64,000 nt of DNA from a bacterium (GTDB taxonomy: Bacteria; Patescibacteriota; Minisyncoccia; Moranbacterales; DUUL01). Where the stretch lies: NCBI GenBank assembly GCA_018675685.1, contig JABGXP010000010.1:49427-113426 (forward strand), in the 5' to 3' direction. Shown piece after piece: positions 8,360 to 53,194 of this stretch (positions are counted from its first letter, which is position 1; each line of letters starts with the position of its first letter). The position numbers and the translations under genes were made by a program. Under the pieces are notes generated by a model, which searched no databases, had not been told where the DNA came from, and saw nothing but the letters and a program-made list of their open reading frames with translations.

Positions 8360-9490
8360 TTAGGTTTTTTCATTCATCAATTTGCTAAAGTTGATAGTCA
8401 CGTCATTGATCCATCTTCCAGCATTTGGGTCTTTGCTACAAGCTGAGCCACATTTCCATAAGACCATCTCTTGAGGGGTGTCTACATCAATTTTCACAAG
8501 TCTCTCAAGTCTGCCACCGACAGTGTCAATTGCATCTTGTGGACCATCAAAACAAGTATGTCCCCCTGTTCCCATTTTCTTTCTTATCCCGCGATATCCC
8601 CAATAGTTATAACAATTCTTCCCATTAAGAACTGGTACATGTCTTCCAAAACCACTTTCTTTCATTGCAATTCCAACAAGAAAAGCTGCTACAGTCCGAT
8701 CTTTCTTAGCGATTAGTGGAGCCATTTCTTCCATAGGGTTTCCTTTTAGAATCTCATAAATTTCACCTTCCAGCTCTTCTGTTTTTATGGTGTCAAAACG
8801 CTTCAGTGCATCTAGCACGAAAGCATCCAGTTTTTGATCAAATTGTTGTGCGATTTTTTCATCTTTCGCTCCAAGCACTTTAGTCTGAGCTTGTACAGTC
8901 GTTTCTGCTTGTTTAAGATGCAAATCAGCCAATTCTTCTGTAGTAGTGTTGTTTTTTTGGTAGCCAACAGTGAATGTAGCAACACTAGTAACAAGAATTG
9001 TTAGTACTAATGCAGTTGCAAAAGATTTTGTTCTGAGAAAAGACATTTGCCAATCAAAGCCCCAAAAAGAGACAGGAGTTTCTCTTGGGTCAAGCTCGCA
9101 CTCCAAGGGACTTTTGAAGGAGGTGTTCAAGAATGGAAGATCGCGGACATATTTCTTCGAATAGTTCAGTTGAAATTCTGGCGAGCAATCCATTTTTTCA
9201 AAATGCTTGGTAGGAGAAATTTCATCAATAAAGTTAACCTTTCTCACCTCAAGTGCTGTCCAACAACCTTTTTTGATTGCGATTCTTTTTGTTTGACTAA
9301 CATAGTTTTTGTTTACTCCATCAACAAAAAAATCTCTCTTGAATTTTGACAAGAAGATTGTTTCTCCCAGGACCCCACTTTTTAGTTGTTTGATCTTTTC
9401 TTGAGCTCTTTTTGGATCATCAAACAGAAACCTAAAGTCCGGTTTGTTATATTTGTCCGTTATGCAATATAAGGACTTTTTTACTTTCAT
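8360..9490 (-). CDS. Membrane-anchored protein with C-terminal GH73-like (glucosaminidase/lysozyme-like) 4-Cys domain, paralog 1
   Basis: C-terminal block PMEEMAPLIAKKDRTVAAFLVGIAMKESGFG...NCYNYWGYRG...GGHTCF...WKCGSAC...RWINDV is shared with ORFs 9627..10388 and 30461..31081. The ESGFG and NYWGYRG blocks resemble glucosaminidase AQAALESGWG and NNLFGIK. There is a TM helix mid-protein. Confidence 0.5.
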   Translation of the reverse strand: MKVKKSLYCITDKYNKPDFRFLFDDPKRAQEKIKQLKSGVLGETIFLSKFKRDFFVDGVNKNYVSQTKRIAIKKGCWTALEVRKVNFIDEISPTKHFEKMDCSPEFQLNYSKKYVRDLPFLNTSFKSPLECELDPRETPVSFWGFDWQMSFLRTKSFATALVLTILVTSVATFTVGYQKNNTTTEELADLHLKQAETTVQAQTKVLGAKDEKIAQQFDQKLDAFVLDALKRFDTIKTEELEGEIYEILKGNPMEEMAPLIAKKDRTVAAFLVGIAMKESGFGRHVPVLNGKNCYNYWGYRGIRKKMGTGGHTCFDGPQDAIDTVGGRLERLVKIDVDTPQEMVLWKCGSACSKDPNAGRWINDVTINFSKLMNEKT

Positions 9491-9626: not shown

Positions 9627-10388
9627 CTAGATGTCAATTTTCATGACCTTAGCATGAAAAAGCGCAACATCAGAGATCCATTTTTGAACACTTTGCGGTG
9701 AATGGGTGGCGCAAGATGAACCACACTTCCAAACTGTCATCTGAGAAGGTCTTGTGGCACCGACTCTAGTCGTTAGTTGTTCTAGTCTTCTTCCAACTAT
9801 AGTGATTGCTTCCTTTGGATTCGAAAAACAGCTATAACCACTTCTGGTTGGACTGGTTTTCCCTTTGAAGCCCCAGTAGTTATAACAACGCTCCCCATTT
9901 TTTTTAGGAGAATAGACTCCAAATTTACTCTCTTTGAAGGCAATTCCAACAAGAAAAGCCGCTACAATCTTTTTTTGCTCAAGAATTGGCTCAATCATTT
10001 CTTCCATGGGAGTTCCCCCTAGAATTTCAAACAATTGTTCTTTCGATATCTTTTGTTTTTGTTCCAACAAAAGCTCTTCTTTGGACTTGAAGGTGTCCTC
10101 ATCACAAAAATCAGGGAAAATTTCAAGTTCCAGTTTCCGAGTATTTTTTTTCAAGAAGCTAGGGTTGCAAAGCGAGACGGTTTTTTTCTCAACATTTGAT
10201 TTTGCATAAGCAAATGGGAAAGCCCGACGGTTTTCGGGGGAGTCAAATGAAGAAAAAGACCAATAAAAAAAGCCACAAATGAGCAATGTGGACCCGATGA
10301 CTAGTTTTTTCTTTCTATTTTTCTGACTTGAAATAGCTCCCCTTATAAAGCTAACCGATTTAGCAGTTAAATCTGCACATCGTTTCAT
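9627..10388 (-). CDS. Membrane-anchored GH73-like 4-Cys domain protein, paralog 2
   Basis: N-terminal TM helix. C-terminal block TPMEEMIEPILEQKKIVAAFLVGIAFKESKFG...RCYNYWGFKG...SGYSCF...WKCGSSC...KWISDV. Confidence 0.5.
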   Translation of the reverse strand: MKRCADLTAKSVSFIRGAISSQKNRKKKLVIGSTLLICGFFYWSFSSFDSPENRRAFPFAYAKSNVEKKTVSLCNPSFLKKNTRKLELEIFPDFCDEDTFKSKEELLLEQKQKISKEQLFEILGGTPMEEMIEPILEQKKIVAAFLVGIAFKESKFGVYSPKKNGERCYNYWGFKGKTSPTRSGYSCFSNPKEAITIVGRRLEQLTTRVGATRPSQMTVWKCGSSCATHSPQSVQKWISDVALFHAKVMKIDI

Positions 10389-30460: not shown

Positions 30461-31081
30461 CTATTTTGATAGTTTTTGAAAGTATAAATCGACATCACTA
30501 ATCCATTTTCTTACACTATAAGAGCTGTGGGTTCTACAAGAGGAACCACACTTCCAAACAATCATCTCCTTGGGAGTGTCTATTCCTTGTTTTACTAAAT
30601 AAGTTATTCGTTTAGCTACAATAGCTACAGCTTCTTCCCGTGAAGCAAAACAAGAATGCCCTCCGCTTCCAAGTGTGTTTGGTCCGCGATATCCCCAGTA
30701 ATTGAAACATTCCTTACCTTTGTATTTAGGAGTTCTTTTACCCCAATTACTTTCCTTCTTTGCGATACTCACGAGAAAAATTGAAACAATTTGATCATGC
30801 TCCATAATATAAGGAATCATTTCTTCAATCGGGTGCCCAGCAACCATTTCTCTTATTCTTTGTTCAAGCTCTATTTTTTCAATATTCTCAATATGAGAAC
30901 TCTTGCTTAAAGAAATATCTTCCTTGAGGTATATAAAATTATACCAAAGGCAAATAAATGTAAATAATAAAAGTACTAAAAAATATATCAAAAAATGACG
31001 AGATTTCTTCAGTGGAATAAAATCTTTTTTTAGTTTGTACAGAGATTTCTTTTTTGTTGCTTTTTCTTTTTTCATTTTCAA
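30461..31081 (-). CDS. Membrane-anchored GH73-like 4-Cys domain protein, paralog 3
   Basis: N-terminal TM helix. C-terminal block HPIEEMIPYIMEHDQIVSIFLVSIAKKESNWG...ECFNYWGYRG...GGHSCF...WKCGSSC...KWISDV. It lies directly upstream of, and on the same strand as, the beta-helix gene. Confidence 0.5.
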   Translation of the reverse strand: MKMKKEKATKKKSLYKLKKDFIPLKKSRHFLIYFLVLLLFTFICLWYNFIYLKEDISLSKSSHIENIEKIELEQRIREMVAGHPIEEMIPYIMEHDQIVSIFLVSIAKKESNWGKRTPKYKGKECFNYWGYRGPNTLGSGGHSCFASREEAVAIVAKRITYLVKQGIDTPKEMIVWKCGSSCRTHSSYSVRKWISDVDLYFQKLSK

Positions 31082-44696: not shown

Positions 44697-45359
44697 TTAG
44701 TCACAGCAGACGCGATTACGTCCACATTTTTTTGCTTTGTACAAATTTTCATCTGCTTCACTCATAAGGGCAGGTAGCGACTGCTCTTTATCGCGCAGAG
44801 TCGCCACACCTAAACTCAGAGTTAAAATTTCGGAAGCATCAGAATTGGAATGGGGAATTTCAAGTTTTTCAATGGCTAAGCGAGCTCTTTCTGCCATAAC
44901 TTGAGCACCTGCTTCATCAGTGTTGGCAAGAATAAAGACAAATTCCTCCCCTCCATATCTTGATAAGGAGTCAGCAGGACGATGCAAGGTGTCTTTGAGC
45001 GCCATCGCAACATTTTCGAGCGCCTCATCTCCTTTTTGATGTCCGTAAAGATCGTTATATTTCTTAAAATAATCAATATCGATCATTACAATAGACAGGG
45101 GTTCATTCCGCCGTAAAGATTCACGGAATTCTCGTTTTGACTCTTGATCAAAGAATCTCCTATTTGAAACACCCGTTAGTCCATCAATCGTTACGAGAGA
45201 CTCAAGTCTTTTGTTTTCCTCCTCTAGCTGGATTATATAGGCCAGTGATCCATCTAACCGCTTTTCTGTCTTGGCTAGTTTTTTTGCAAAGGATTTAATG
45301 ATCTTTCGCAATTTCTCTACTAATAAGTCGACATGTGGTAATCTTGACTCCTTTGCCAT
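44697..45359 (-). CDS. Diguanylate cyclase (GGDEF domain) with N-terminal coiled coil
   Basis: GLTGVSNRRFFD, the GGEEF active site (RYGGEEFVFIL), and an I-site-like RPAD motif. SD AAGGAG. GC-richer than background. Confidence 0.9.
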   Translation of the reverse strand: MAKESRLPHVDLLVEKLRKIIKSFAKKLAKTEKRLDGSLAYIIQLEEENKRLESLVTIDGLTGVSNRRFFDQESKREFRESLRRNEPLSIVMIDIDYFKKYNDLYGHQKGDEALENVAMALKDTLHRPADSLSRYGGEEFVFILANTDEAGAQVMAERARLAIEKLEIPHSNSDASEILTLSLGVATLRDKEQSLPALMSEADENLYKAKKCGRNRVCCD

Positions 45360-46637: not shown

Positions 46638-47525
46638 ATGATAACGAGAAAGGAAAAGAGGAGAGAATTCAAAAACAAGAACCAAAAAGATAAGTTTTCT
46701 CAGAACTTTCCCCAAGCCAAAAAATCCTTGGGGCAGAATTTTTTAAATGATGAGAAATTTCTTAACTTAATTGTTGAAACAGCAAATTTAAAAAAAACCG
46801 ATAATGTTCTGGAAGTTGGACCAGGAACAGGACTTTTAACTGATAAACTGGAAAGAGCTCCCAAAAAAGTAATTTGTATTGAAAAAGATCGAAGAATGGT
46901 TAAATATTTAGTTGCAAAGTATGGATTGAATAAGGAAAAACAAAAAGAGCAAAAAATTGAAATTATAGAAGGTGATATCTTAGAAATAGACTTGCCTAAA
47001 TTTTTGAAGGAAAGAAACTTTGGTGACTATAAAGTTGTCGCTAATATTCCCTATTATATAACAGGAAAGCTTTTACGTTTATTGTTGGAAACAGAAGTTC
47101 GGGCAAAGTCAATCGTTCTTTTAATTCAAAAGGAAGTCGCTGAGCGAGTTTGTAGCGAGTCTGGCTCCATGAACATCCTTGCAGTGTCAGTTCAGTATTA
47201 TGCAGACATTCGATTAGTTGCAGTTGTTCCAAGAGAGGTGTTTAGTCCGATACCGAAAGTTGATTCAGCCATCATTCATGCGACACCTTTTTTGAAAGAA
47301 AGAGAGAGTGTAGAGCTTGAAAAAGGATTTTTCAAGGTTGTGAAGAGTGGATTTTCTAGTCCGAGAAAAAAATTGTTGAATAATTTGGCTTCTGGATTAA
47401 AACTAGAGAAGGACAAGTTAACCTTTATTTTCTCTGAATTTGGATGGGATGAAAATGTGCGAGCCCAAAATCTGTCTATTAAACAATGGAAGGAGTTAAG
47501 AGATAAAATTTCAAAAAATTTCTAG
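46638..47525 (+). CDS. rsmA: 16S rRNA (adenine1518/1519-N6)-dimethyltransferase RsmA/KsgA
   Basis: KKSLGQNFLNDEKFLNLI, SAM motif VLEVGPGTGLLT, and NIPYYIT. Confidence 0.9.
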   Translation: MITRKEKRREFKNKNQKDKFSQNFPQAKKSLGQNFLNDEKFLNLIVETANLKKTDNVLEVGPGTGLLTDKLERAPKKVICIEKDRRMVKYLVAKYGLNKEKQKEQKIEIIEGDILEIDLPKFLKERNFGDYKVVANIPYYITGKLLRLLLETEVRAKSIVLLIQKEVAERVCSESGSMNILAVSVQYYADIRLVAVVPREVFSPIPKVDSAIIHATPFLKERESVELEKGFFKVVKSGFSSPRKKLLNNLASGLKLEKDKLTFIFSEFGWDENVRAQNLSIKQWKELRDKISKNF

Positions 47526-47633: not shown

Positions 47634-50600
47634 ATGAGCGAAGAAGAAAAACAAAAACAAAATGAAGAAAACTCTGATGATGCTCAAAAGGCTAGTCAGA
47701 CAAATGTGAATGACGACGAAGAAAGAGTTGTGTACGAAGAAGATGAATCGCCGGAAGAAAAAGAGCGCCGTCATCTTGAGGCACGAGACAAGAGGCGAGC
47801 AGAAAGAAAAGCCTTAGAAGAAAAGGAGAAAAGGGATGTAAAGGAAAGAAAGAAGAAGAAAAAGGAAGAAATGAACTTTGCTAGAAAAGGGAAGGTTCAA
47901 AAAACCCTAACACACTTGAAAAAGGGTTCCGAGGAAGAAGAGGCTTCAAAACTGGCAAACACACTTCATATCCCGTATCTTGATCTTAATATTTTTCCGA
48001 TTGACCAGGAAAATGTTAAATTTATAGAAGAGGATATTGCGAAAGAGTTAGGAATAGCAGTTGTTCATAAACTAGAAAGATCAATAAAGTTAGTCACGAC
48101 AAACCCTGAAGAGGGAAAAGTCAGGGATTTCATCGCAGAACTAGAAGATGATGGGATGAAAGTCGAACTTTTTATAGTTTCGCAATCATCCATAGAGAGA
48201 GCCTGGGACGAGTATGGAAAGGAAAACTTAGTAGAAATCCTAGATACATTACGAGCGGGGTTAACAGGTGAAGAGTTAGCAGCTTTCGAAAATGATACGA
48301 AAGGTGTTTTGGATATGGATACAAAAATTCGTGACCTTCCAGTAACAAAAGTCTTGAACATGGTTCTGGCTGGAGCTATTAAGTTAGAATCATCGGATAT
48401 TCATTTCGAGCCACAACAAACAAGTAAGGTCCGTTTGAGATTTCGTATAGACGGTGTATTGCAAACAGTAGCATCTTTCCCTGTTCATATATATCCAACG
48501 GTTGTTGCTAGAGTGAAGGTGCTTGGAAAAATGATGATTAATGTGCGAGATATTGCACAAGACGGTCGTTTTTCTGTTGAAAGAGAGGGTCAAGCCCCAA
48601 TGGATTTGCGTGTTTCGATTCTACCAGGTAATTTTGGTGAAAATATTGTGGTTCGTTTGCTTAGTCAAAACATCGATGACTTGTCTTTAGATAAAATGGG
48701 ATTAGAAGGGCTGAATTACGAATGGCTTATTAATGAATCTGAAAAAAAACAGGGTGCTATTATTAATTCTGGACCAACAGGAAGCGGAAAAACAACAACA
48801 TTATATGCGCTTATTAATCGTTTAAATTCCGTTGACAAGAAAATCATTAGTATCGAAAACCCGATTGAATATCAAGTCCCTGGTGTTAGTCAAACCCAAA
48901 TTGAAGAAAGAAAGGGATACACATTTGAAAGTGGCCTGCGGGCAATTATGCGTCAGGACCCAGACATTATCTTGGTCGGTGAGATTCGGGATGAAGCTAC
49001 TGCAGAGATAGCCATTCATGCCTCATTGACTGGTCATCTTGTGCTTTCAACAACTCATGCAAATAGTGCGACGGGGGTGATTGGACGTTTCGTTGATCTT
49101 GGAATTAAACCAAACTTAATAGCCCCTGCAATCAATGCTTTTGTTGCACAACGTCTTCTGAGACGTCTATGCCCACATTGCAAAGAGGAATACAAACCAG
49201 CAAGTGAGACAATTGATATGATTAAGAAAATGTTGGCGCTTATTTCTCCTAAGGCTGATATTTCCATACCTAAGCATATTGAAAAACTTTGGAGACCAAA
49301 GGGTTGTCATAAATGTCATGGACTTGGGTATAAAGGAAGAGTGGGAATTTTTGAGATCCTTGTTATTTCAGAAGAAATCAAAGATGAAATCGAGAGAATG
49401 TCGCCAGAGGATGAAATTAGGAGTGTGGCATTGGAAAATGGAATGATTACTTTGGAGCAGGACGGAATTTTAAAATCTGTTATTGGTACTACCTCAATCG
49501 AGGAATTGCAAAGAGTCGTTGGAAAGGGTGAATACTTGATTGATTTATATGAAAAAATAGTTGTACAATCTTTGGCACGTGGAATTTTTGTTAAAGATGA
49601 AGTTTTGCAGGCTGTTGATAAAATCAGGGATGATTATGAGGCATTCGAAGAACTGTATCGGAAACTTCCGCCAAAGGAATTAATCAAATACATTCTAATT
49701 GGAGCAATATACACAGGAACTGGAGACATTCATATTGAACCAGGGATGAAGCAATTTAAGATTCGATATCGAATTGACGGTGCTTTGCATGATATCGCAC
49801 TTTTGGCAATGAATGATTATTTGACTGTCTTAAATGAGATTAAGAATTTAATGGGAGTTAAAACCGGAAAGCGAGAAGGAGTGATTGATGGGAGATTTAA
49901 AATTATGTATACCAATAAAGACAAGGAGTCAGGAGAGGAGAGTATTGACGTTCGTGTTTCTATTATACTTGGTGGCTTTGGCGATGTAATCGTGATGAGA
50001 CTTTTAAGTCAAAGCGTCCAAGTTGCTAGCTTGGAAAAGTTAAATATAAATGAGTATAATCTTGAGAAAATAAAGAGAAATGTTGCCCGTCCCAATGGGA
50101 TTATTATGGATACAGGACCGACTGGGAGTGGAAAAACTACTACATTGTACAGTCTTTTGAATTATCTTAAGGACCCTAAATTAAAATTAATCACAATTGA
50201 AGATCCAATTGAATATCAAATGGAAGGAGTTTTGCAAACTCAAGTAAAAGAGGAAGAAGATTATACCTTCACGACAGCGATGAGGGTTATTTTACGACAA
50301 GACCCTGATATTGTAATGGTTGGAGAAATAAGAGACTCAGAGAGCGCCAATGCTGCCTATAGAGTAGCTTTAACAGGGCATTTAATCCTAACCACACTAC
50401 ATGCAAACAGTGCAGCAGGAGCTGTGCAAAGACTTTTGAATATGGGTATATCGATGTCGGATCTATCAACTGGTACGAATTGTTTTATTGCACAACGTTT
50501 AGTCAGAGTACTTTGTCCTCATTGCAAAAAAGAAAAAACAGTTGATTCGGAAGAAAAAAAGATAATTGAAAAAGTTTTAAAGGGTGTTTCTCCGAAAGTG

Positions 50601-50945
50601 ACCCTAGATATTCCTGAAAAAGTTGAAAAAATTTGGGAAGCAGTTGGTTGTGAAGAATGCCATAACATTGGTTTCAAGGGAAGAGTTGCAATTACGGAGG
50701 TCTTGGAGATTGATAGAGTAATGCAAAAATTTCTAACCATGAATCCAATCACAGTTGAAATTAGAGAGAAGGCGATTGAAGAGGGAATGTTGACGATGGG
50801 ACAAGAAGGAATCTTGCGTGTTGTAAGAGGGGAAACAACAATCGAAGAGATTTCCCATGTAATTAAAGAGATAGATTTTGTCAAAGTTGAAAAACAAATT
50901 GAGTTAAAGGAAGAAGAATCCGCAACCGAAGAGGTTGTGGTGTGA
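47634..50945 (+). CDS. Tandem-fused double PilB/GspE-family secretion ATPase (two complete ATPase modules in one 1103-aa polypeptide)
   Basis: Module 1: GspE N-terminal domain, Walker A SGPTGSGKTTTLYAL, Asp box DPDIILVGEIRD, His box LTGHLVLSTTHANSA, tetra-Cys CPHCKEE...CHKCHGLGYKGR. Module 2: TGPTGSGKTTTLYSL, DPDIVMVGEIRD, LTGHLILTTLHANSA, CPHCKKE...CEECHNIGFKGR. A ~90-aa charged low-complexity N-terminus. Confidence 0.85.
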   Translation: MSEEEKQKQNEENSDDAQKASQTNVNDDEERVVYEEDESPEEKERRHLEARDKRRAERKALEEKEKRDVKERKKKKKEEMNFARKGKVQKTLTHLKKGSEEEEASKLANTLHIPYLDLNIFPIDQENVKFIEEDIAKELGIAVVHKLERSIKLVTTNPEEGKVRDFIAELEDDGMKVELFIVSQSSIERAWDEYGKENLVEILDTLRAGLTGEELAAFENDTKGVLDMDTKIRDLPVTKVLNMVLAGAIKLESSDIHFEPQQTSKVRLRFRIDGVLQTVASFPVHIYPTVVARVKVLGKMMINVRDIAQDGRFSVEREGQAPMDLRVSILPGNFGENIVVRLLSQNIDDLSLDKMGLEGLNYEWLINESEKKQGAIINSGPTGSGKTTTLYALINRLNSVDKKIISIENPIEYQVPGVSQTQIEERKGYTFESGLRAIMRQDPDIILVGEIRDEATAEIAIHASLTGHLVLSTTHANSATGVIGRFVDLGIKPNLIAPAINAFVAQRLLRRLCPHCKEEYKPASETIDMIKKMLALISPKADISIPKHIEKLWRPKGCHKCHGLGYKGRVGIFEILVISEEIKDEIERMSPEDEIRSVALENGMITLEQDGILKSVIGTTSIEELQRVVGKGEYLIDLYEKIVVQSLARGIFVKDEVLQAVDKIRDDYEAFEELYRKLPPKELIKYILIGAIYTGTGDIHIEPGMKQFKIRYRIDGALHDIALLAMNDYLTVLNEIKNLMGVKTGKREGVIDGRFKIMYTNKDKESGEESIDVRVSIILGGFGDVIVMRLLSQSVQVASLEKLNINEYNLEKIKRNVARPNGIIMDTGPTGSGKTTTLYSLLNYLKDPKLKLITIEDPIEYQMEGVLQTQVKEEEDYTFTTAMRVILRQDPDIVMVGEIRDSESANAAYRVALTGHLILTTLHANSAAGAVQRLLNMGISMSDLSTGTNCFIAQRLVRVLCPHCKKEKTVDSEEKKIIEKVLKGVSPKVTLDIPEKVEKIWEAVGCEECHNIGFKGRVAITEVLEIDRVMQKFLTMNPITVEIREKAIEEGMLTMGQEGILRVVRGETTIEEISHVIKEIDFVKVEKQIELKEEESATEEVVV

Positions 50946-51006
50946 TAAAAAAATACAATAAAAAAACTGCCACTTGGGCAGTTTCAAGGCGCATTTCTAA
51001 GATTAA

Positions 51007-51134
51007 TCTGTAGACAATAAAAGCTTACACGACAAGGTGTAAGGCAGGAATAGAACCGAGGATAGCACAGTCGAAACCACACTAACCTATACTAAGAAAA
51101 ATCCCCTGGGAGTTCAGAGCACCCTTGTCTACAG
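51007..51134. repeat. 128-bp GC-richer element closed by an 11-bp inverted repeat (CTGTAGACAA...TTGTCTACAG); structured RNA or MITE-like
   Basis: Terminal inverted repeats at 51007..51016 and 51125..51134. An internal hairpin CTTACAC-GACAAG-GTGTAAG. Sits between the pilB-fusion terminator and the ruvB promoter. Confidence 0.4.
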
Positions 51135-51317
51135 GTTAACACTAAAAATGTAAAAAAACTCTGACAAAATTCTTAATCCACGTTAAGACATCCTAGCATA
51201 AAGCAAAAAATTTGTCAAGAGATGTTATTGTTTTTATCTTCGAAGAATATTTTTGTGTTGGAAAATTGAAAAAAATGATAGAATGAAAGGGTATGTAAAG
51301 AAAGTAATTCACAGACA

Positions 51318-52322
51318 ATGATTGAAACAAACAAACAAGATGATATAGATGAGCAATTAGATACTACATTGCGCCCTCAGTCGCTAGATGAATATGTTGG
51401 CCAGGAAATTATCAAGAAAAACCTTCATATTTTGATGGGTGCAGCTAAAAAAAGGAAAGAAGCTCTTGATCATATTTTGTTATTCGGACCCCCCGGACTC
51501 GGTAAGACTACTTTAGCTCACATTATTTCAAGAGAAATGGGCGCCGGAATCAAAACAACATCAGGACCTGCGATCGAAAGAGTTGGTGACCTTGGCTCCA
51601 TTTTGACTAACTTAAACGACGGAGATGTTCTGTTTATAGATGAAATTCACAGATTGAGTAAGGTTGTAGAGGAAGTTCTGTACCCTGCTATGGAGGATGG
51701 GAAGCTGGATATTATAGTTGGCAAAGGTCCGTCTGCAAGGACAATTCAATTGGAACTGCCAAATTTTACACTTATTGGAGCTACCACAAGAATGGGAATG
51801 TTATCGGCACCACTTAGAAACAGGTTCGGGGTGATTAACAAACTCGAGTTTTATTCAGAAGAAGAGATGTGTCAAATTATTGAAAGAAATGGCAAAATTC
51901 TTGGAGTAAAAACAGATCCTCAAGGAAGAGTAAGAATTGCAAAATGTGCCAGAAAAACACCAAGAATTGTGAATAGATTGCTTAAGAGGGTGAGGGATTA
52001 TGCACAAATGAATGATCATTCAATTATCTCCAATAACACAGTTGCTGCTACTTTTGAAATCCTAGATATAGATCATTTGGGACTAGAATCATCAGACAGA
52101 GAAGTTTTAAGTATTATGATTGATAAATTTTCTGGAGGACCAGTTGGTGTTCAAACCATAGCTGCAGCTTTCTCTGAGGATGTTCAAACGATAGAAGAAG
52201 TATATGAACCGTTCTTAATGCAACTTGGGTTCGTTGAAAGAACTCCACGAGGGCGACGTGTAACAGATGCAGCATATAAACATTTAGGAGTGAAAATTCC
52301 TGAAAACAGAGAACAGATCTAA
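51318..52322 (+). CDS. ruvB: Holliday junction branch-migration helicase RuvB
   Basis: [13 protein letters not shown], Walker [12 protein letters not shown], Walker B DEIHRL, sensor motifs. 334 aa. Confidence 0.95.
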
Positions 52323-52344: not shown

Positions 52345-52605
52345 ATGATAAACCTACTCTTAATTGCATACTTTATTTTTCTCCTATTCTTTTTTGGTGG
52401 AAGTTTGGCTGTTGTTTATCATCTCAAAGTGAATAAACTAAACGAAAAAGTATCGACGATTACAACACTTTTTTTTATTGTTGGATGTTTACTTGTTCTA
52501 ACTTTTAATATTTCAAATGCGATTCAAGTTGACTGGAAATTACTTTCTTTCGATCTCGGAGAGATTCCAGTGAGCTTAGAGCTAGAAGATTCTTCATATG
52601 AATAA
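52345..52605 (+). CDS. Hypothetical small membrane protein (2 TM)
   Basis: 86 aa. Stop overlaps the start of the next gene (ATGAATAA). Confidence 0.35.
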   Translation: MINLLLIAYFIFLLFFFGGSLAVVYHLKVNKLNEKVSTITTLFFIVGCLLVLTFNISNAIQVDWKLLSFDLGEIPVSLELEDSSYE

Positions 52606-53194
52606 ACCAAAAGGTAACTACCAACACAGATTTCTAGACTATCATTTCAAAGGAAAAAGAGATGGTGAGGAAATCATTTTGATCCTAAGGAGACATTGGT
52701 TGATTTTAGTCGCGAAATTGATACCATTTGGATTTTTTTCAATTGGTCTTATCGCAATTTTTTTTCTCGCACCAATTTTAACAGAATTTCTCCCTATTGT
52801 GATTGATAACAATGTTTTTAATGTAGTAATGAGCTTCTTTTTTATGGGTTTTTGGTTAAGCCTTTTTGTGATGTGGATTGATTTTTATTACGATGTTTGG
52901 ATCGTCACAGATCAGAGGATTATTAGTATTGAACAGTTGGGCTTGTTTCGACGTGAAATAAGCGAACTAGAACATGGGAAAATTCAGGATGTGACAACGG
53001 AAATTCATGGGATAGTCCCAACTTTACTGAAGTTCGGCCAAGTGTATATCCAAACTGCTGGAGAAAAAGCTCGCTTCACTTTTAAGCAAGTGGAGAATCC
53101 TGTTATGATTAGATCAGTGGTCATGGCATTGCAGAAAAATGCGATAAAACAACAAAAAAGAGAAGAGGGTGCGATAATGAGAGGTAAAGTTTAA
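52598..53194 (+). CDS. Bacterial PH-domain (bPH_2/DUF304-like) membrane protein
   Basis: Two TM helices then YDVWIVTDQRIISIE...GLFRREI...IQDV pattern typical of YdbS/YdbT bPH_2 domains. Confidence 0.45.
   Translation: MNKPKGNYQHRFLDYHFKGKRDGEEIILILRRHWLILVAKLIPFGFFSIGLIAIFFLAPILTEFLPIVIDNNVFNVVMSFFFMGFWLSLFVMWIDFYYDVWIVTDQRIISIEQLGLFRREISELEHGKIQDVTTEIHGIVPTLLKFGQVYIQTAGEKARFTFKQVENPVMIRSVVMALQKNAIKQQKREEGAIMRGKV

What the first reader, a model, noticed from the sequence alone, without database searches (positions are those of the whole stretch)
47634..50945. Two full PilB/GspE secretion-ATPase modules fused into one 1103-aa polypeptide
One uninterrupted ORF holds two full sets of GspE/PilB catalytic motifs: Walker A GPTGSGKTTT twice, Asp box DPDI..VGEIRD twice, His box LTGHL...HANSA twice, and two tetra-Cys zinc motifs. 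A GspE N-terminal domain precedes only the first module, and a ~90-aa highly charged Lys/Glu-rich tail starts the protein. PilB/GspE ATPases normally assemble as hexamers of ~550-aa subunits. A covalent head-to-tail dimer would fix a pseudo-trimer-of-dimers geometry and allow the two halves to specialise. No pilM/N/O/C or pilin genes are adjacent; the flanking genes are rsmA and ruvB, so the partner machinery is unclear. I do not recognise this architecture as a described PilB/GspE form.
Basis: seen in the sequence. Interest (0 to 1): 0.65.

Follow-up and report, generated by a model that had tools for sequence, protein, structure and literature searches.

The report
Fused double PilB-type secretion ATPase
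This is a real gene in which the motor unit of a pilus-assembly (PilB/GspE-type) ATPase occurs twice in one protein; it belongs to an old, widespread but so far undescribed lineage of ultra-small Patescibacteria, and it offers a natural covalently linked version of a motor that normally works as six separate subunits.

Summary
ORF 47634..50945 (+) encodes 1103 aa: a charged tail, one N-terminal docking domain, then two complete PilB/GspE ATPase modules, each with Walker A, Asp box, Walker B, His box and a four-cysteine motif. It is not an assembly artefact. The halves share 43% protein identity and almost no DNA identity, and the exact protein recurs on many contigs.

It is not unique. More than 120 clusters of full-length relatives exist in Patescibacteria, under generic names. 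Module 1s and module 2s form separate clades, indicating one ancient duplication. Both ATP sites are conserved throughout. A three-module relative exists. Among 14,641 PilB/GspE-like clusters at 50% identity, only about 13 are doubles. I found no paper describing the architecture.

Single- and double-module forms occupy the same position upstream of ruvB, never beside pilus genes. No pilus genes lie within about 84 kb here.

The most likely reading is that three chains build one six-module PilB-like ring, driving a type IV filament encoded elsewhere. That is inferred; stacked rings are not excluded.

In passing, I found a conserved structured RNA between this gene and ruvB that matches no Rfam family.

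The parts
47634..50945 (+). Complete ORF of the double PilB/GspE-type ATPase (1103 aa plus stop)
   Evidence: the identical protein P0001 is on 23 contigs read
47634..47903 (+). N-terminal Lys/Glu-rich low-complexity tail (residues 1-90), specific to the close clade
   Evidence: Residues about 13-81 are gapped in most of 117 family members; the tail is conserved in P0002-P0008
47967..48221 (+). N1 domain (Pfam MshEN / GSPII-E N-terminal type), residues 112-196; present once only
   Evidence: PF05157, 29.5 bits, above the 23.1 cut-off; the c-di-GMP-binding motif is absent
48333..49514 (+). Module 1 (N2 domain plus ATPase CTD), residues 234-627. Walker A at 380, Asp box 442, Walker B 448, His box 466, Cys 513/516/558/561
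   Evidence: aligns to PilB chains 5tsg/6olj; fold TM-score up to 0.91 to PilF/PilB cores
49515..49679 (+). Inter-module linker, residues 628-682. It contains the conserved helix GKGEYLIDLYEKI, followed by helices that mirror the pre-N2 helices of module 1
   Evidence: conservation; linker motif across the family; secondary structure
49680..50867 (+). Module 2 (N2 domain plus ATPase CTD), residues 683-1078. Walker A at 828, Asp box 890, Walker B 896, His box 914, Cys 961/964/1006/1009
50868..50942 (+). Acidic C-terminal tail (residues 1079-1103), clade-specific
   Evidence: 81% gaps across the family
50963..50985 (-). Hairpin followed by a U-run on the minus strand, abutting the ORF's stop codon. 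Candidate terminator of the convergent RNA and probably of the ATPase mRNA too
   Evidence: the A-run columns are invariant in relatives
51003..51139 (-). Core of a conserved structured RNA (four helices) encoded convergently to the ATPase gene and divergently from ruvB. It is a neighbour of the ATPase, not part of it
   Evidence: no Rfam match
51190..51218 (-). Promoter-like site on the minus strand (TTGACA, 17 nt, TAGGAT with TG) for the RNA
   Evidence: the -35 columns are invariant in alignment A2
51318..52322 (+). ruvB, the conserved downstream neighbour
   Evidence: it lies directly beyond the RNA in 62 of 62 informative metagenome loci
46638..47525 (+). rsmA (16S rRNA dimethyladenosine transferase), the upstream neighbour

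Best explanation
SHOWN.
- This is a genuine PilB/GspE-superfamily ATPase whose motor unit (N2 domain plus RecA-like ATPase domain with a four-cysteine zinc-type motif) is present twice in one chain, behind a single N1 docking domain.
- It arose by an internal tandem duplication of roughly 448 aa in a single-module gene. That gene already sat in the same chromosomal position, upstream of a small RNA gene and ruvB, away from pilus genes.
- The duplication is old. It is shared by a large set of Patescibacteria (names include Moranbacteria/Moraniibacteriota, Paceibacterota, Minisyncoccia and Parcubacteria) and has been inherited vertically.
- Both nucleotide sites have stayed intact under similar constraint.

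INFERRED.
- Three chains assemble side by side into one ring of six ATPase modules, equivalent to a PilB hexamer. The ring alternates module 1 and module 2 and carries three N1 domains instead of six.
- The three-module relative would form the same ring from two chains.
- The ring docks on a PilC/PilM-type platform encoded elsewhere and powers extension of a type IV filament (adhesive or DNA-uptake pilus), as PilB does.
For: Real and reproducible:
- One ORF with two T2SSE stretches and all motifs present twice.
- The same protein occurs on many independent contigs.

Old, single duplication:
- The halves are 43% identical in protein and unrelated in DNA.
- In a tree of modules, all module 1s form one clade and all module 2s another, with parallel branching.
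- Walker A spacing is a near-constant ~448 aa (447-461) across 120 relatives.

Both sites functional by sequence:
- Walker A, Asp box, Walker B and His box are kept in both modules in essentially all 120 relatives.
- All eight cysteines are invariant in 63 sequences.
- Mean conservation is 0.74 for the module 1 CTD and 0.71 for the module 2 CTD.
- 91 columns are conserved and identical in both modules.

PilB-like:
- Residues 70-629 align end to end with PilB chains 5tsg/6olj at E about 1e-100.
- The fold matches PilF/PilB cores with TM-score up to 0.91.

In-situ origin:
- The nearest single-module relative, P0136, lies in the same DHH - GspE - small ORF - ruvB context.
- Among metagenome loci found through the neighbouring RNA, single-module genes (L043/L060/L117, L105, L114, L120) and double-module genes (at least 32 loci) occupy the same position.

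Ring logic:
- Natural variants have 2 or 3 modules, both divisors of six.
- Solved PilB/PilT hexamers include a C2 'ccocco' state (6olj) and a C3 'ocococ' state (6ojy). These are the symmetries that a dimer of triples and a trimer of doubles would impose.

Pili are widespread in these bacteria: PilB, PilT, PilC and PilM/N/O are enriched in CPR genomes (PMC6744442).
Against: - No pilC, pilM/N/O, pilD, pilT or pilin gene lies within about 84 kb in this genome. None lies within 10 kb in 12 relatives. No pilin-like N-terminus occurs in 1.1 Mb of related loci, apart from one classical PilB locus. The partner machinery is therefore unidentified, and I could not show that these genomes encode one.
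- Scanned singly, neither module reaches any curated equivalog cut-off: PilB 453 and 359 against 676; GspE 453 and 375 against 630; ComGA 235 and 213 against 300.
- AlphaFold2 does not fix the relative position of the modules (pTM 0.57 for the whole protein, 0.66 for CTD1-linker-N2D2). The tools return no coordinates and do no multimer modelling, so ring geometry was not tested.
- Tandem P-loop ATPases in other families usually stack as two rings (my own knowledge).
Confidence: 0.55

Rival explanations
1. Stacked double ring. Six chains assemble so that the module 1s form one hexameric ring and the module 2s a second ring beneath it (12 ATP sites), as in tandem AAA+ proteins. Only the upper ring would contact the membrane platform.
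For: The linker of about 55 aa, with a conserved helix, is long enough for such an arrangement. GspE has been crystallised as an engineered C-terminal fusion to the hexameric ring protein Hcp1 (PDB 4ksr/4kss, listed), which shows that a ring can sit below the CTD ring. AlphaFold2 gives no confident side-by-side packing. Stacked rings are the norm for tandem p97/NSF/ClpB-type ATPases (my own knowledge).
Against: Module 2 keeps its own N2 domain. In PilB/PilT hexamers, from my memory of the structural literature and not tested here, the N2 domain packs on the neighbouring subunit's CTD within one ring. The three-module variant would then need three stacked rings. No stacked arrangement is known for this superfamily (one search shows only single-ring entries).
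Confidence: 0.2
2. The lineage is not a pilus-extension motor. It is a PilB-like ATPase recruited to a DNA-related task, such as DNA uptake or translocation feeding recombination, reflected in its fixed place among DNA-repair genes.
For: The neighbourhood with ruvB is deeply conserved, and in deeper relatives it also includes polA, a DHH-family phosphoesterase, ruvC and yebC. Pilus genes are never adjacent, whereas CPR pilus components usually co-localise (PMC6744442). Patescibacteria are thought to depend on DNA uptake (same paper).
Against: The ATPase and ruvB are separated by a convergent RNA gene with its own terminator, so they are not one operon. The RNA follows ruvB in 62 of 62 loci but the GspE-type gene in only 53 of 64. 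Other neighbours are generic housekeeping genes (rsmA, tsaE, dnaJ, murA). The N1 docking domain and the four-cysteine motif are hallmarks of filament-assembly ATPases. A competence pilus is itself a type IV filament, so this rival partly overlaps the best explanation.
Confidence: 0.15
3. One module is a degenerate, regulatory pseudo-ATPase, so that only three of the six sites in a ring hydrolyse ATP.
For: Module 2 has NPD instead of DPD in the Asp box in 91% of relatives. 16 columns are conserved only in module 1, against 4 only in module 2. Some deep relatives have GPTSAGKTT or GSTGAGKTT in module 2. An unrelated double, P0135, has lost the Walker A lysine in its first module.
Against: In this protein and essentially all 120 relatives, both modules keep the Walker A lysine, the Walker B glutamate, the His box and the cysteines. 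This window's module 2 even keeps DPD. Overall conservation of the two modules is nearly equal.
Confidence: 0.07
4. Artefact: a collapsed or chimeric assembly, or a missed stop or frameshift joining two adjacent pilB genes.
For: None beyond the rarity of the architecture.
Against: There is no DNA repeat between the halves. The identical ORF occurs in 51 assembly blocks. More than 130 diverged full-length relatives have the same uninterrupted frame and a near-constant module spacing. The linker itself is conserved.
Confidence: 0.01

Closest known systems
PilB, the type IVa pilus extension ATPase (e.g. Geobacter metallireducens PilB, PDB 5tsg/5tsh/6olj)
   Same: Module 1 with its N1 domain aligns over its full length (E about 1e-100). 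The N2 plus CTD fold is the same (TM-score about 0.9). It has the same Walker A, Asp, Walker B and His boxes and the four-cysteine motif.
   Different: A second complete N2 plus CTD module is fused in frame. Per-module scores are below the PilB equivalog cut-off. The gene is not next to pilC or pilins.
Thermus thermophilus PilF (PDB 5it5, 5oiu, 6f8l)
   Same: It is a PilB-type motor enlarged by internal repetition, and its ATPase core is the best fold match.
   Different: From my own knowledge, PilF repeats the N-terminal GSPII domains and has one ATPase core (913 aa chain, one matched stretch). Here the ATPase core itself is repeated and the N1 domain is single.
TfpB of Acinetobacter baylyi, a second extension motor (PMC8213720)
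   Same: It is a PilB-family ATPase, phylogenetically distinct from canonical PilB, that lacks pilB's usual pilB-pilC synteny and contributes to pilus extension and transformation.
   Different: TfpB is a single-module protein. This protein does not reach the TfpB model cut-off (368 against 850 per module). Whether a classical PilB coexists with it here is unknown.
Engineered GspE-Hcp1 fusions (PDB 4ksr/4kss)
   Same: Covalent fusion is used to fix the oligomeric state of a GspE-type ATPase (listed).
   Different: Those are artificial, and the partner is an unrelated ring protein. Here the fusion is natural and joins two ATPase modules.
Tandem P-loop ATPases of other families: p97/NSF/ClpB (stacked AAA+ rings) and EccC/EssC of type VII secretion (three FtsK-like domains in one chain). 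From my own knowledge.
   Same: Several ATPase modules lie in one polypeptide, some catalytic and some regulatory.
   Different: They belong to different superfamilies. Their modules stack along the ring axis, whereas the N2-CTD organisation here suggests side-by-side assembly. That was not tested.
P0135-type fusion (metagenomic, 1047 aa)
   Same: Two T2SSE modules in one chain.
   Different: It is an independent lineage. It is preceded by two T2SSF (PilC/GspF-type) stretches instead of an N1 domain, and the first Walker A lysine is replaced (GPTGSGTTT).

Membership tests
Pfam T2SSE (PF00437), the PilB/GspE/PilT/VirB11 secretion-ATPase superfamily | Match above the gathering score | tested here: met
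   698.8 bits against a 24.9 cut-off, in two stretches
Pfam T2SSE (PF00437), the PilB/GspE/PilT/VirB11 secretion-ATPase superfamily | Walker A, Asp box, Walker B and His box | tested here: met
   All four are present in both modules and conserved across the family
PilB, type IV-A pilus assembly ATPase (TIGR02538 equivalog) | A single ATPase unit scores at or above the curated cut-off (675.65 bits) | tested here: not met
   Module 1 with N1 scores 453.4 and module 2 scores 359.1. The whole-protein 795.7 bits is the sum of two modules.
PilB, type IV-A pilus assembly ATPase (TIGR02538 equivalog) | Full-length collinearity N1 - N2 - CTD with the four-cysteine motif | tested here: met
   Met for module 1: residues 70-629 align to PilB 38-584, and the cysteines are invariant. 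Module 2 lacks N1.
PilB, type IV-A pilus assembly ATPase (TIGR02538 equivalog) | Gene linked to pilC/pilM/pilins, or such genes present in the genome | tested here: not met
   Linkage was tested and not found: none in about 84 kb here or in the flanks of relatives. Presence elsewhere in the genome could not be tested.
PilB, type IV-A pilus assembly ATPase (TIGR02538 equivalog) | Forms a hexameric ring and is required for pilus extension | not testable with these tools
   There is no multimer modelling and no coordinates; the monomer pTM values are 0.57 and 0.66.
GspE, type II secretion ATPase (TIGR02533 equivalog) | A single ATPase unit scores at or above 630.25 bits | tested here: not met
   452.6 and 374.9 bits
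GspE, type II secretion ATPase (TIGR02533 equivalog) | Linked to gspF/L/M, pseudopilins and a secretin | tested here: not met
   None are nearby. CPR genomes lack the PilQ secretin, according to PMC6744442.
ComGA, competence pilus ATPase (NF041000) | Score at or above 300 bits per unit | tested here: not met
   234.7 and 213.1 bits
MshE-type c-di-GMP-binding ATPases (functional MshEN domain) | Tandem 24-residue motif RLGxx(L/V/I)(L/V/I)xxG(L/V/I)(L/V/I)xxxxLxxxLxxQ (PMC5013675) | tested here: not met
   Neither the strict nor the relaxed motif occurs in this protein or in any of 145 long relatives. No known c-di-GMP-binding MshE sequence was available as a positive control for the regexes. The Pfam MshEN hit reflects only the general N1 fold.
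PilT/PilU retraction ATPases (TIGR01420) | Score at or above 319.1 bits; no N1 domain and no four-cysteine motif | tested here: not met
   163.2 and 147.9 bits. The N1 domain and the cysteines are present.
TfpB accessory extension ATPase (NF053534) | Score at or above 850 bits | tested here: not met
   367.8 and 329.2 bits per module

The most novel reading that the evidence does not exclude
Patescibacteria carry a natural covalent PilB dimer, and in some lineages a covalent trimer. These close into a six-module ring with enforced C3 (or C2) symmetry and only three (or two) docking domains. It would be a dedicated motor encoded apart from the pilus genes, fixed for a very long time next to ruvB and a previously unknown structured RNA. 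The two modules would take alternate roles in the rotary cycle. That would give a ready-made system for mutating defined positions of a PilB ring, and a possible link between DNA-uptake pili and recombination.
Probability: 0.3. Interest if true: 0.75.

Novelty: new variant of a known kind. Interest (0 to 1): 0.6.

Why it matters
PilB/GspE motors are homohexamers. How their six sites fire, and whether the working state is C2 or C3 symmetric, is argued from crystal and cryo-EM snapshots; both states appear among the solved structures listed. A natural chain with two modules, and a relative with three, fixes which sites are neighbours. It lets one mutate 'every second' or 'every third' site without engineering. 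From my own knowledge, that approach was decisive for other ring ATPases studied as covalent multimers.

Biologically, this marks out a distinct, ancient, orphan PilB lineage in Patescibacteria, organisms whose lifestyle is thought to depend on type IV pili and DNA uptake. Current annotation hides it behind generic 'GspE/PulE family protein' names. Summed scores also push it misleadingly over the curated GspE and PilB equivalog cut-offs.

The neighbouring RNA is a well-supported structured RNA absent from Rfam.

Tried and rejected
- Assembly artefact or missed stop: rejected.
- Equivalog membership: the NCBIfam 'pass' for GspE and PilB is a sum of two modules. Per-module scans fail every equivalog cut-off.
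- c-di-GMP control through the MshEN domain, suggested by the Pfam name and a nearby GGDEF gene: the published motif is absent in all 145 relatives, though the regexes were not checked against a known binder.
- Operon with ruvB: rejected, because a convergent RNA gene with its own terminator lies between them.
- RNA linked specifically to the ATPase, my first reading: corrected by the metagenome scan. The RNA is tied to ruvB in 62 of 62 loci and to a GspE-type gene in 53 of 64.
- Inter-module geometry from AlphaFold2: both the whole protein (pTM 0.57) and the CTD1-linker-N2D2 junction (pTM 0.66) were inconclusive. The tool returns no coordinates or PAE.
- AFDB50 fold search: the library was not available.
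- Finding a classical PilB on the same contig as a double, by matching contig lengths in a homologue search with the pilin-adjacent single PilB P0144: no match, and the top hits were again doubles.
- Extending the genome view: the look-up of the last window ORF failed. The flanks obtained through two other genes show no pilus genes.
- Rfam identity for the RNA: none at gathering or permissive thresholds, for 17 instances.
- The RNA in the two deepest double-GspE loci: a weak 15-bit hit in L011 and none in L012, even with filters off.
- Literature searches for a tandem PilB/GspE or a ruvB-associated RNA in these bacteria found nothing.


Full report
OBSERVATION

Pfam finds one N-terminal MshEN/GSPII-type domain (residues 112-196) and the T2SSE secretion-ATPase domain in two stretches (698.8 bits).

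Every catalytic landmark occurs twice:
- Walker A GPTGSGKTT at 380 and 828
- Asp box DPDI at 442 and 890
- Walker B VGEIRD at 448 and 896
- TGH at 466 and 914
- CxxC pairs at 513/558 and 961/1006

The two halves are 43% identical over 410 aa. Their DNA is essentially unrelated, with a best match of 77% over 48 nt. That excludes a collapsed tandem repeat and shows the duplication is old. The identical protein is on record in 51 blocks of public assemblies, and the 23 contigs read have the same neighbours.

ANATOMY

- Residues 1-90 are a Lys/Glu-rich tail. It is missing from most relatives but conserved among the 81-84% identical ones.
- Residues about 91-200 are the N1 domain.
- Module 1 (residues 234-627) together with N1 aligns end to end with solved PilB chains: query 70-629 against PilB 38-584, E about 1e-100.
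- A linker of about 55 aa follows. It contains a conserved helix, GKGEYLIDLYEKI, that recurs across the family.
- Module 2 (residues 683-1078) has its own N2 domain and ATPase domain but no N1.
- An AlphaFold2 model built on 63 relatives is well folded (pLDDT 82.5). Each module matches PilF/PilB cores with TM-score up to 0.91.
- No solved structure contains a tandem arrangement.

FAMILY

A homologue search returns at least 120 clusters (90% identity) of full-length relatives of 1000-1110 aa and 50-84% identity. Where named, they come from Patescibacteria: Moranbacteria and Parcubacteria. A second search adds a large group of 964-967 aa named Minisyncoccia and Paceibacterota. The closest species-level genomes are Candidatus Moraniibacteriota MAGs.

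All relatives keep the four ATPase motifs in both modules. The eight cysteines are invariant in a 63-sequence alignment. The two ATPase domains are about equally conserved, at 0.74 and 0.71.

In a tree of separated modules, all module 1s fall in one clade and all module 2s in another, with parallel branching. This indicates a single ancestral duplication followed by vertical descent.

Specialisation is slight. 91 columns are conserved and identical in both modules. Only 4 are conserved but different; for example, DPD in module 1 against NPD in most module 2s. 16 columns are conserved only in module 1 and 4 only in module 2.

One relative, P0009 (1460 aa), has three intact modules. Its middle module is intermediate between the two types.

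An exhaustive search of 1.84 billion representatives finds 14,641 PilB/GspE-like clusters at E <= 1e-30. Only about 13 of them are doubles. Two of those, P0131 and P0133, have halves that are 55% and 74% identical and look like separate, later duplications. A further, unrelated double (P0135) carries two PilC/GspF-type stretches at its N-terminus and has lost the first Walker A lysine.

So the architecture is rare across the superfamily but common and old within one bacterial group. Members are already in GenBank under generic names, for example KKU82539.1, 'General secretory pathway protein E'. I found no paper that describes it.

GENOMIC SETTING

In this window the gene lies between rsmA and ruvB. 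ruvB is followed by an 86-aa membrane ORF and a bPH_2 protein. The order GspE - ruvB - small ORF - bPH_2 holds in 9 of 10 loci down to 51% identity.

At 39-49% identity the setting is still recognisable: polA - tsaE - DHH gene - double GspE - (inserted toxin-antitoxin or Abi genes) - ruvB - small ORF - bPH_2-type gene, with yebC and ruvC beyond in L011.

The nearest single-module relative, P0136, sits in the same DHH - GspE - small ORF - ruvB context. Another single, P0144, is followed by a pilin-like gene, which is the classical context. The position next to ruvB therefore predates the duplication, and the duplication happened in place.

No pilus gene is present in the window, in the 10 kb beyond each end, or in the flanks of any relative. 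In 1.1 Mb of fetched loci, the only pilin-like N-terminus is beside P0144. By contrast, CPR pilus components are reported to co-localise in numerous genomes (PMC6744442).

I could not determine whether the genomes that carry the double also carry a classical PilB and a pilus cluster elsewhere.

WHAT IT IS NOT

- The whole-protein NCBIfam scores pass the GspE and PilB equivalog cut-offs, but only because two modules add up. Scanned singly, neither module reaches any equivalog cut-off: PilB 453 and 359 against 676; GspE 453 and 375 against 630; ComGA 235 and 213 against 300; TfpB 368 and 329 against 850; PilT 163 and 148 against 319.
- The 'MshEN' label and a GGDEF gene two genes upstream suggested c-di-GMP control. 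The published binding motif (PMC5013675) is absent, in strict and relaxed form, from this protein and from 145 relatives. The regexes were not checked against a known binder.
- The gene is not in an operon with ruvB (see below).

MECHANISM

Shown: a PilB-type ATPase with two intact motor modules and one docking domain, maintained for a long time.

Inferred: three chains form one six-module ring equivalent to a PilB hexamer, with module 1 and module 2 alternating and three N1 domains. This ring drives extension of a type IV filament whose platform and pilins are encoded elsewhere.

Arguments for side-by-side assembly:
- Module 2 retains a full N2 domain.
- Natural variants have two or three modules, both divisors of six.
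- PilB/PilT hexamers have been solved in C2 'ccocco' and C3 'ocococ' states. These are the symmetries a dimer of triples or a trimer of doubles would impose.

Arguments against certainty:
- AlphaFold2 does not define the relative position of the modules (pTM 0.57 for the whole protein; 0.66 for CTD1-linker-N2D2).
- No multimer modelling or coordinates were available.
- Tandem ATPases of other families usually stack.

I put the pseudo-hexamer pilus-motor reading at about 0.55, stacked rings at about 0.2, a DNA-related non-pilus role at about 0.15, one regulatory module at about 0.07, and artefact at about 0.01.

SIDE FINDING

The 372-bp gap between the ATPase stop codon and ruvB has no credible ORF but holds a conserved element closed by CTGTAGACA...TGTCTACAG.

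Strand and structure:
- The consensus fold is far better on the minus strand: -24.0 kcal/mol, 37 pairs, 15 with compensatory changes. The plus strand gives -10.5.
- A minus-strand promoter-like site (51218-51190) and a terminator hairpin (50985-50963) bracket it.

Distribution and linkage:
- A pattern scan of metagenomes found at least 119 matches. 104 were confirmed by a covariance model.
- Among loci with enough flank, ruvB lies directly beyond the RNA in 62 of 62. A GspE-type gene, single or double, lies on the other side in 53 of 64.

Covariation on 81 distinct sequences:
- 92.7% of cells are paired, against 81% in shuffles and about 43% when partners are slid.
- 22 of 37 pairs show double changes.
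- 0 of 500 shuffles reach the observed values.

Seventeen instances match no Rfam 15 family. It is thus a well-supported structured RNA of unknown function, primarily a neighbour of ruvB. It separates the ATPase gene from ruvB transcriptionally.

VERDICT

This is a new variant of a known kind: real, ancient, widespread in one phylum, hidden by generic annotation and, as far as I could search, undescribed. Its assembly state and partner machinery remain open. Interest 0.6.

Noticed in passing
window 50957-51218 (core 51003-51139), minus strand: A conserved structured RNA with four helices, its own promoter-like site and a terminator. It lies between the ATPase gene and ruvB and matches no Rfam 15 family. 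It was found in at least 104 metagenome loci, always directly upstream of and divergent from ruvB (62 of 62), and usually with a GspE-type gene on the other side (53 of 64). Covariation is strong: 22 of 37 pairs compensatory, 0 of 500 shuffles.
   Followed up: yes
L005 10001-14383 (protein P0009): A three-module version of the same ATPase (1460 aa, three T2SSE stretches, all motifs intact). The middle module is intermediate between the module 1 and module 2 types, suggesting unequal recombination within a double.
   Followed up: partly
protein P0135 (1047 aa, metagenomic; no locus fetched): An independent fusion: two T2SSF (PilC/GspF-type) stretches followed by two T2SSE modules in one chain. 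The first Walker A lysine is replaced (GPTGSGTTT). This would be a platform-plus-motor fusion with one probably inactive site.
   Followed up: partly
proteins P0133 and P0131 (about 995 aa): Doubles whose halves are 74% and 55% identical, without the conserved linker helix. They appear to be separate, more recent duplications of a PilB-type gene.
   Followed up: partly
window 8360-9490 (-), 9627-10388 (-), 30461-31081 (-): Three paralogous ORFs share a C-terminal domain of about 130 aa with conserved cysteines (PMEEM..FLVGIA.KES.FG..CYNYWG..WKCGSSC..WISDV). There is no Pfam match.
   Followed up: partly
window 44697-45359 (-): A GGDEF (diguanylate cyclase) gene two genes upstream of the ATPase, conserved in the close relatives L007-L009. 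The ATPase's N1 domain nevertheless lacks the MshEN c-di-GMP-binding motif.
   Followed up: partly
window 52345-52605 and 52598-53194 (+): ruvB is followed, here and in distant relatives, by an overlapping pair: a hydrophobic, probably membrane-spanning ORF of 72-86 aa and a bPH_2-domain membrane protein. This pair is conserved and of unknown function.
   Followed up: no
(annotation issue, not a locus): Summed scores of the two modules lift the whole protein over the curated NCBIfam equivalog cut-offs for both GspE and PilB, although neither module qualifies alone. Automatic pipelines may therefore misname such tandem proteins.
   Followed up: yes
proteins P0020 and P0021 (N-termini): Other members of the family carry unrelated low-complexity N-terminal extensions of about 95 aa that are rich in Gln, Ser and Ala. 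Disordered tails seem to have been added to this ATPase more than once.
   Followed up: no
L013 4605-5819: In the genome with the single-module orthologue, ruvB is followed by a 404-aa protein with a T4SS_pilin (PF18895) domain, a component of the conjugation-type secretion system.
   Followed up: no
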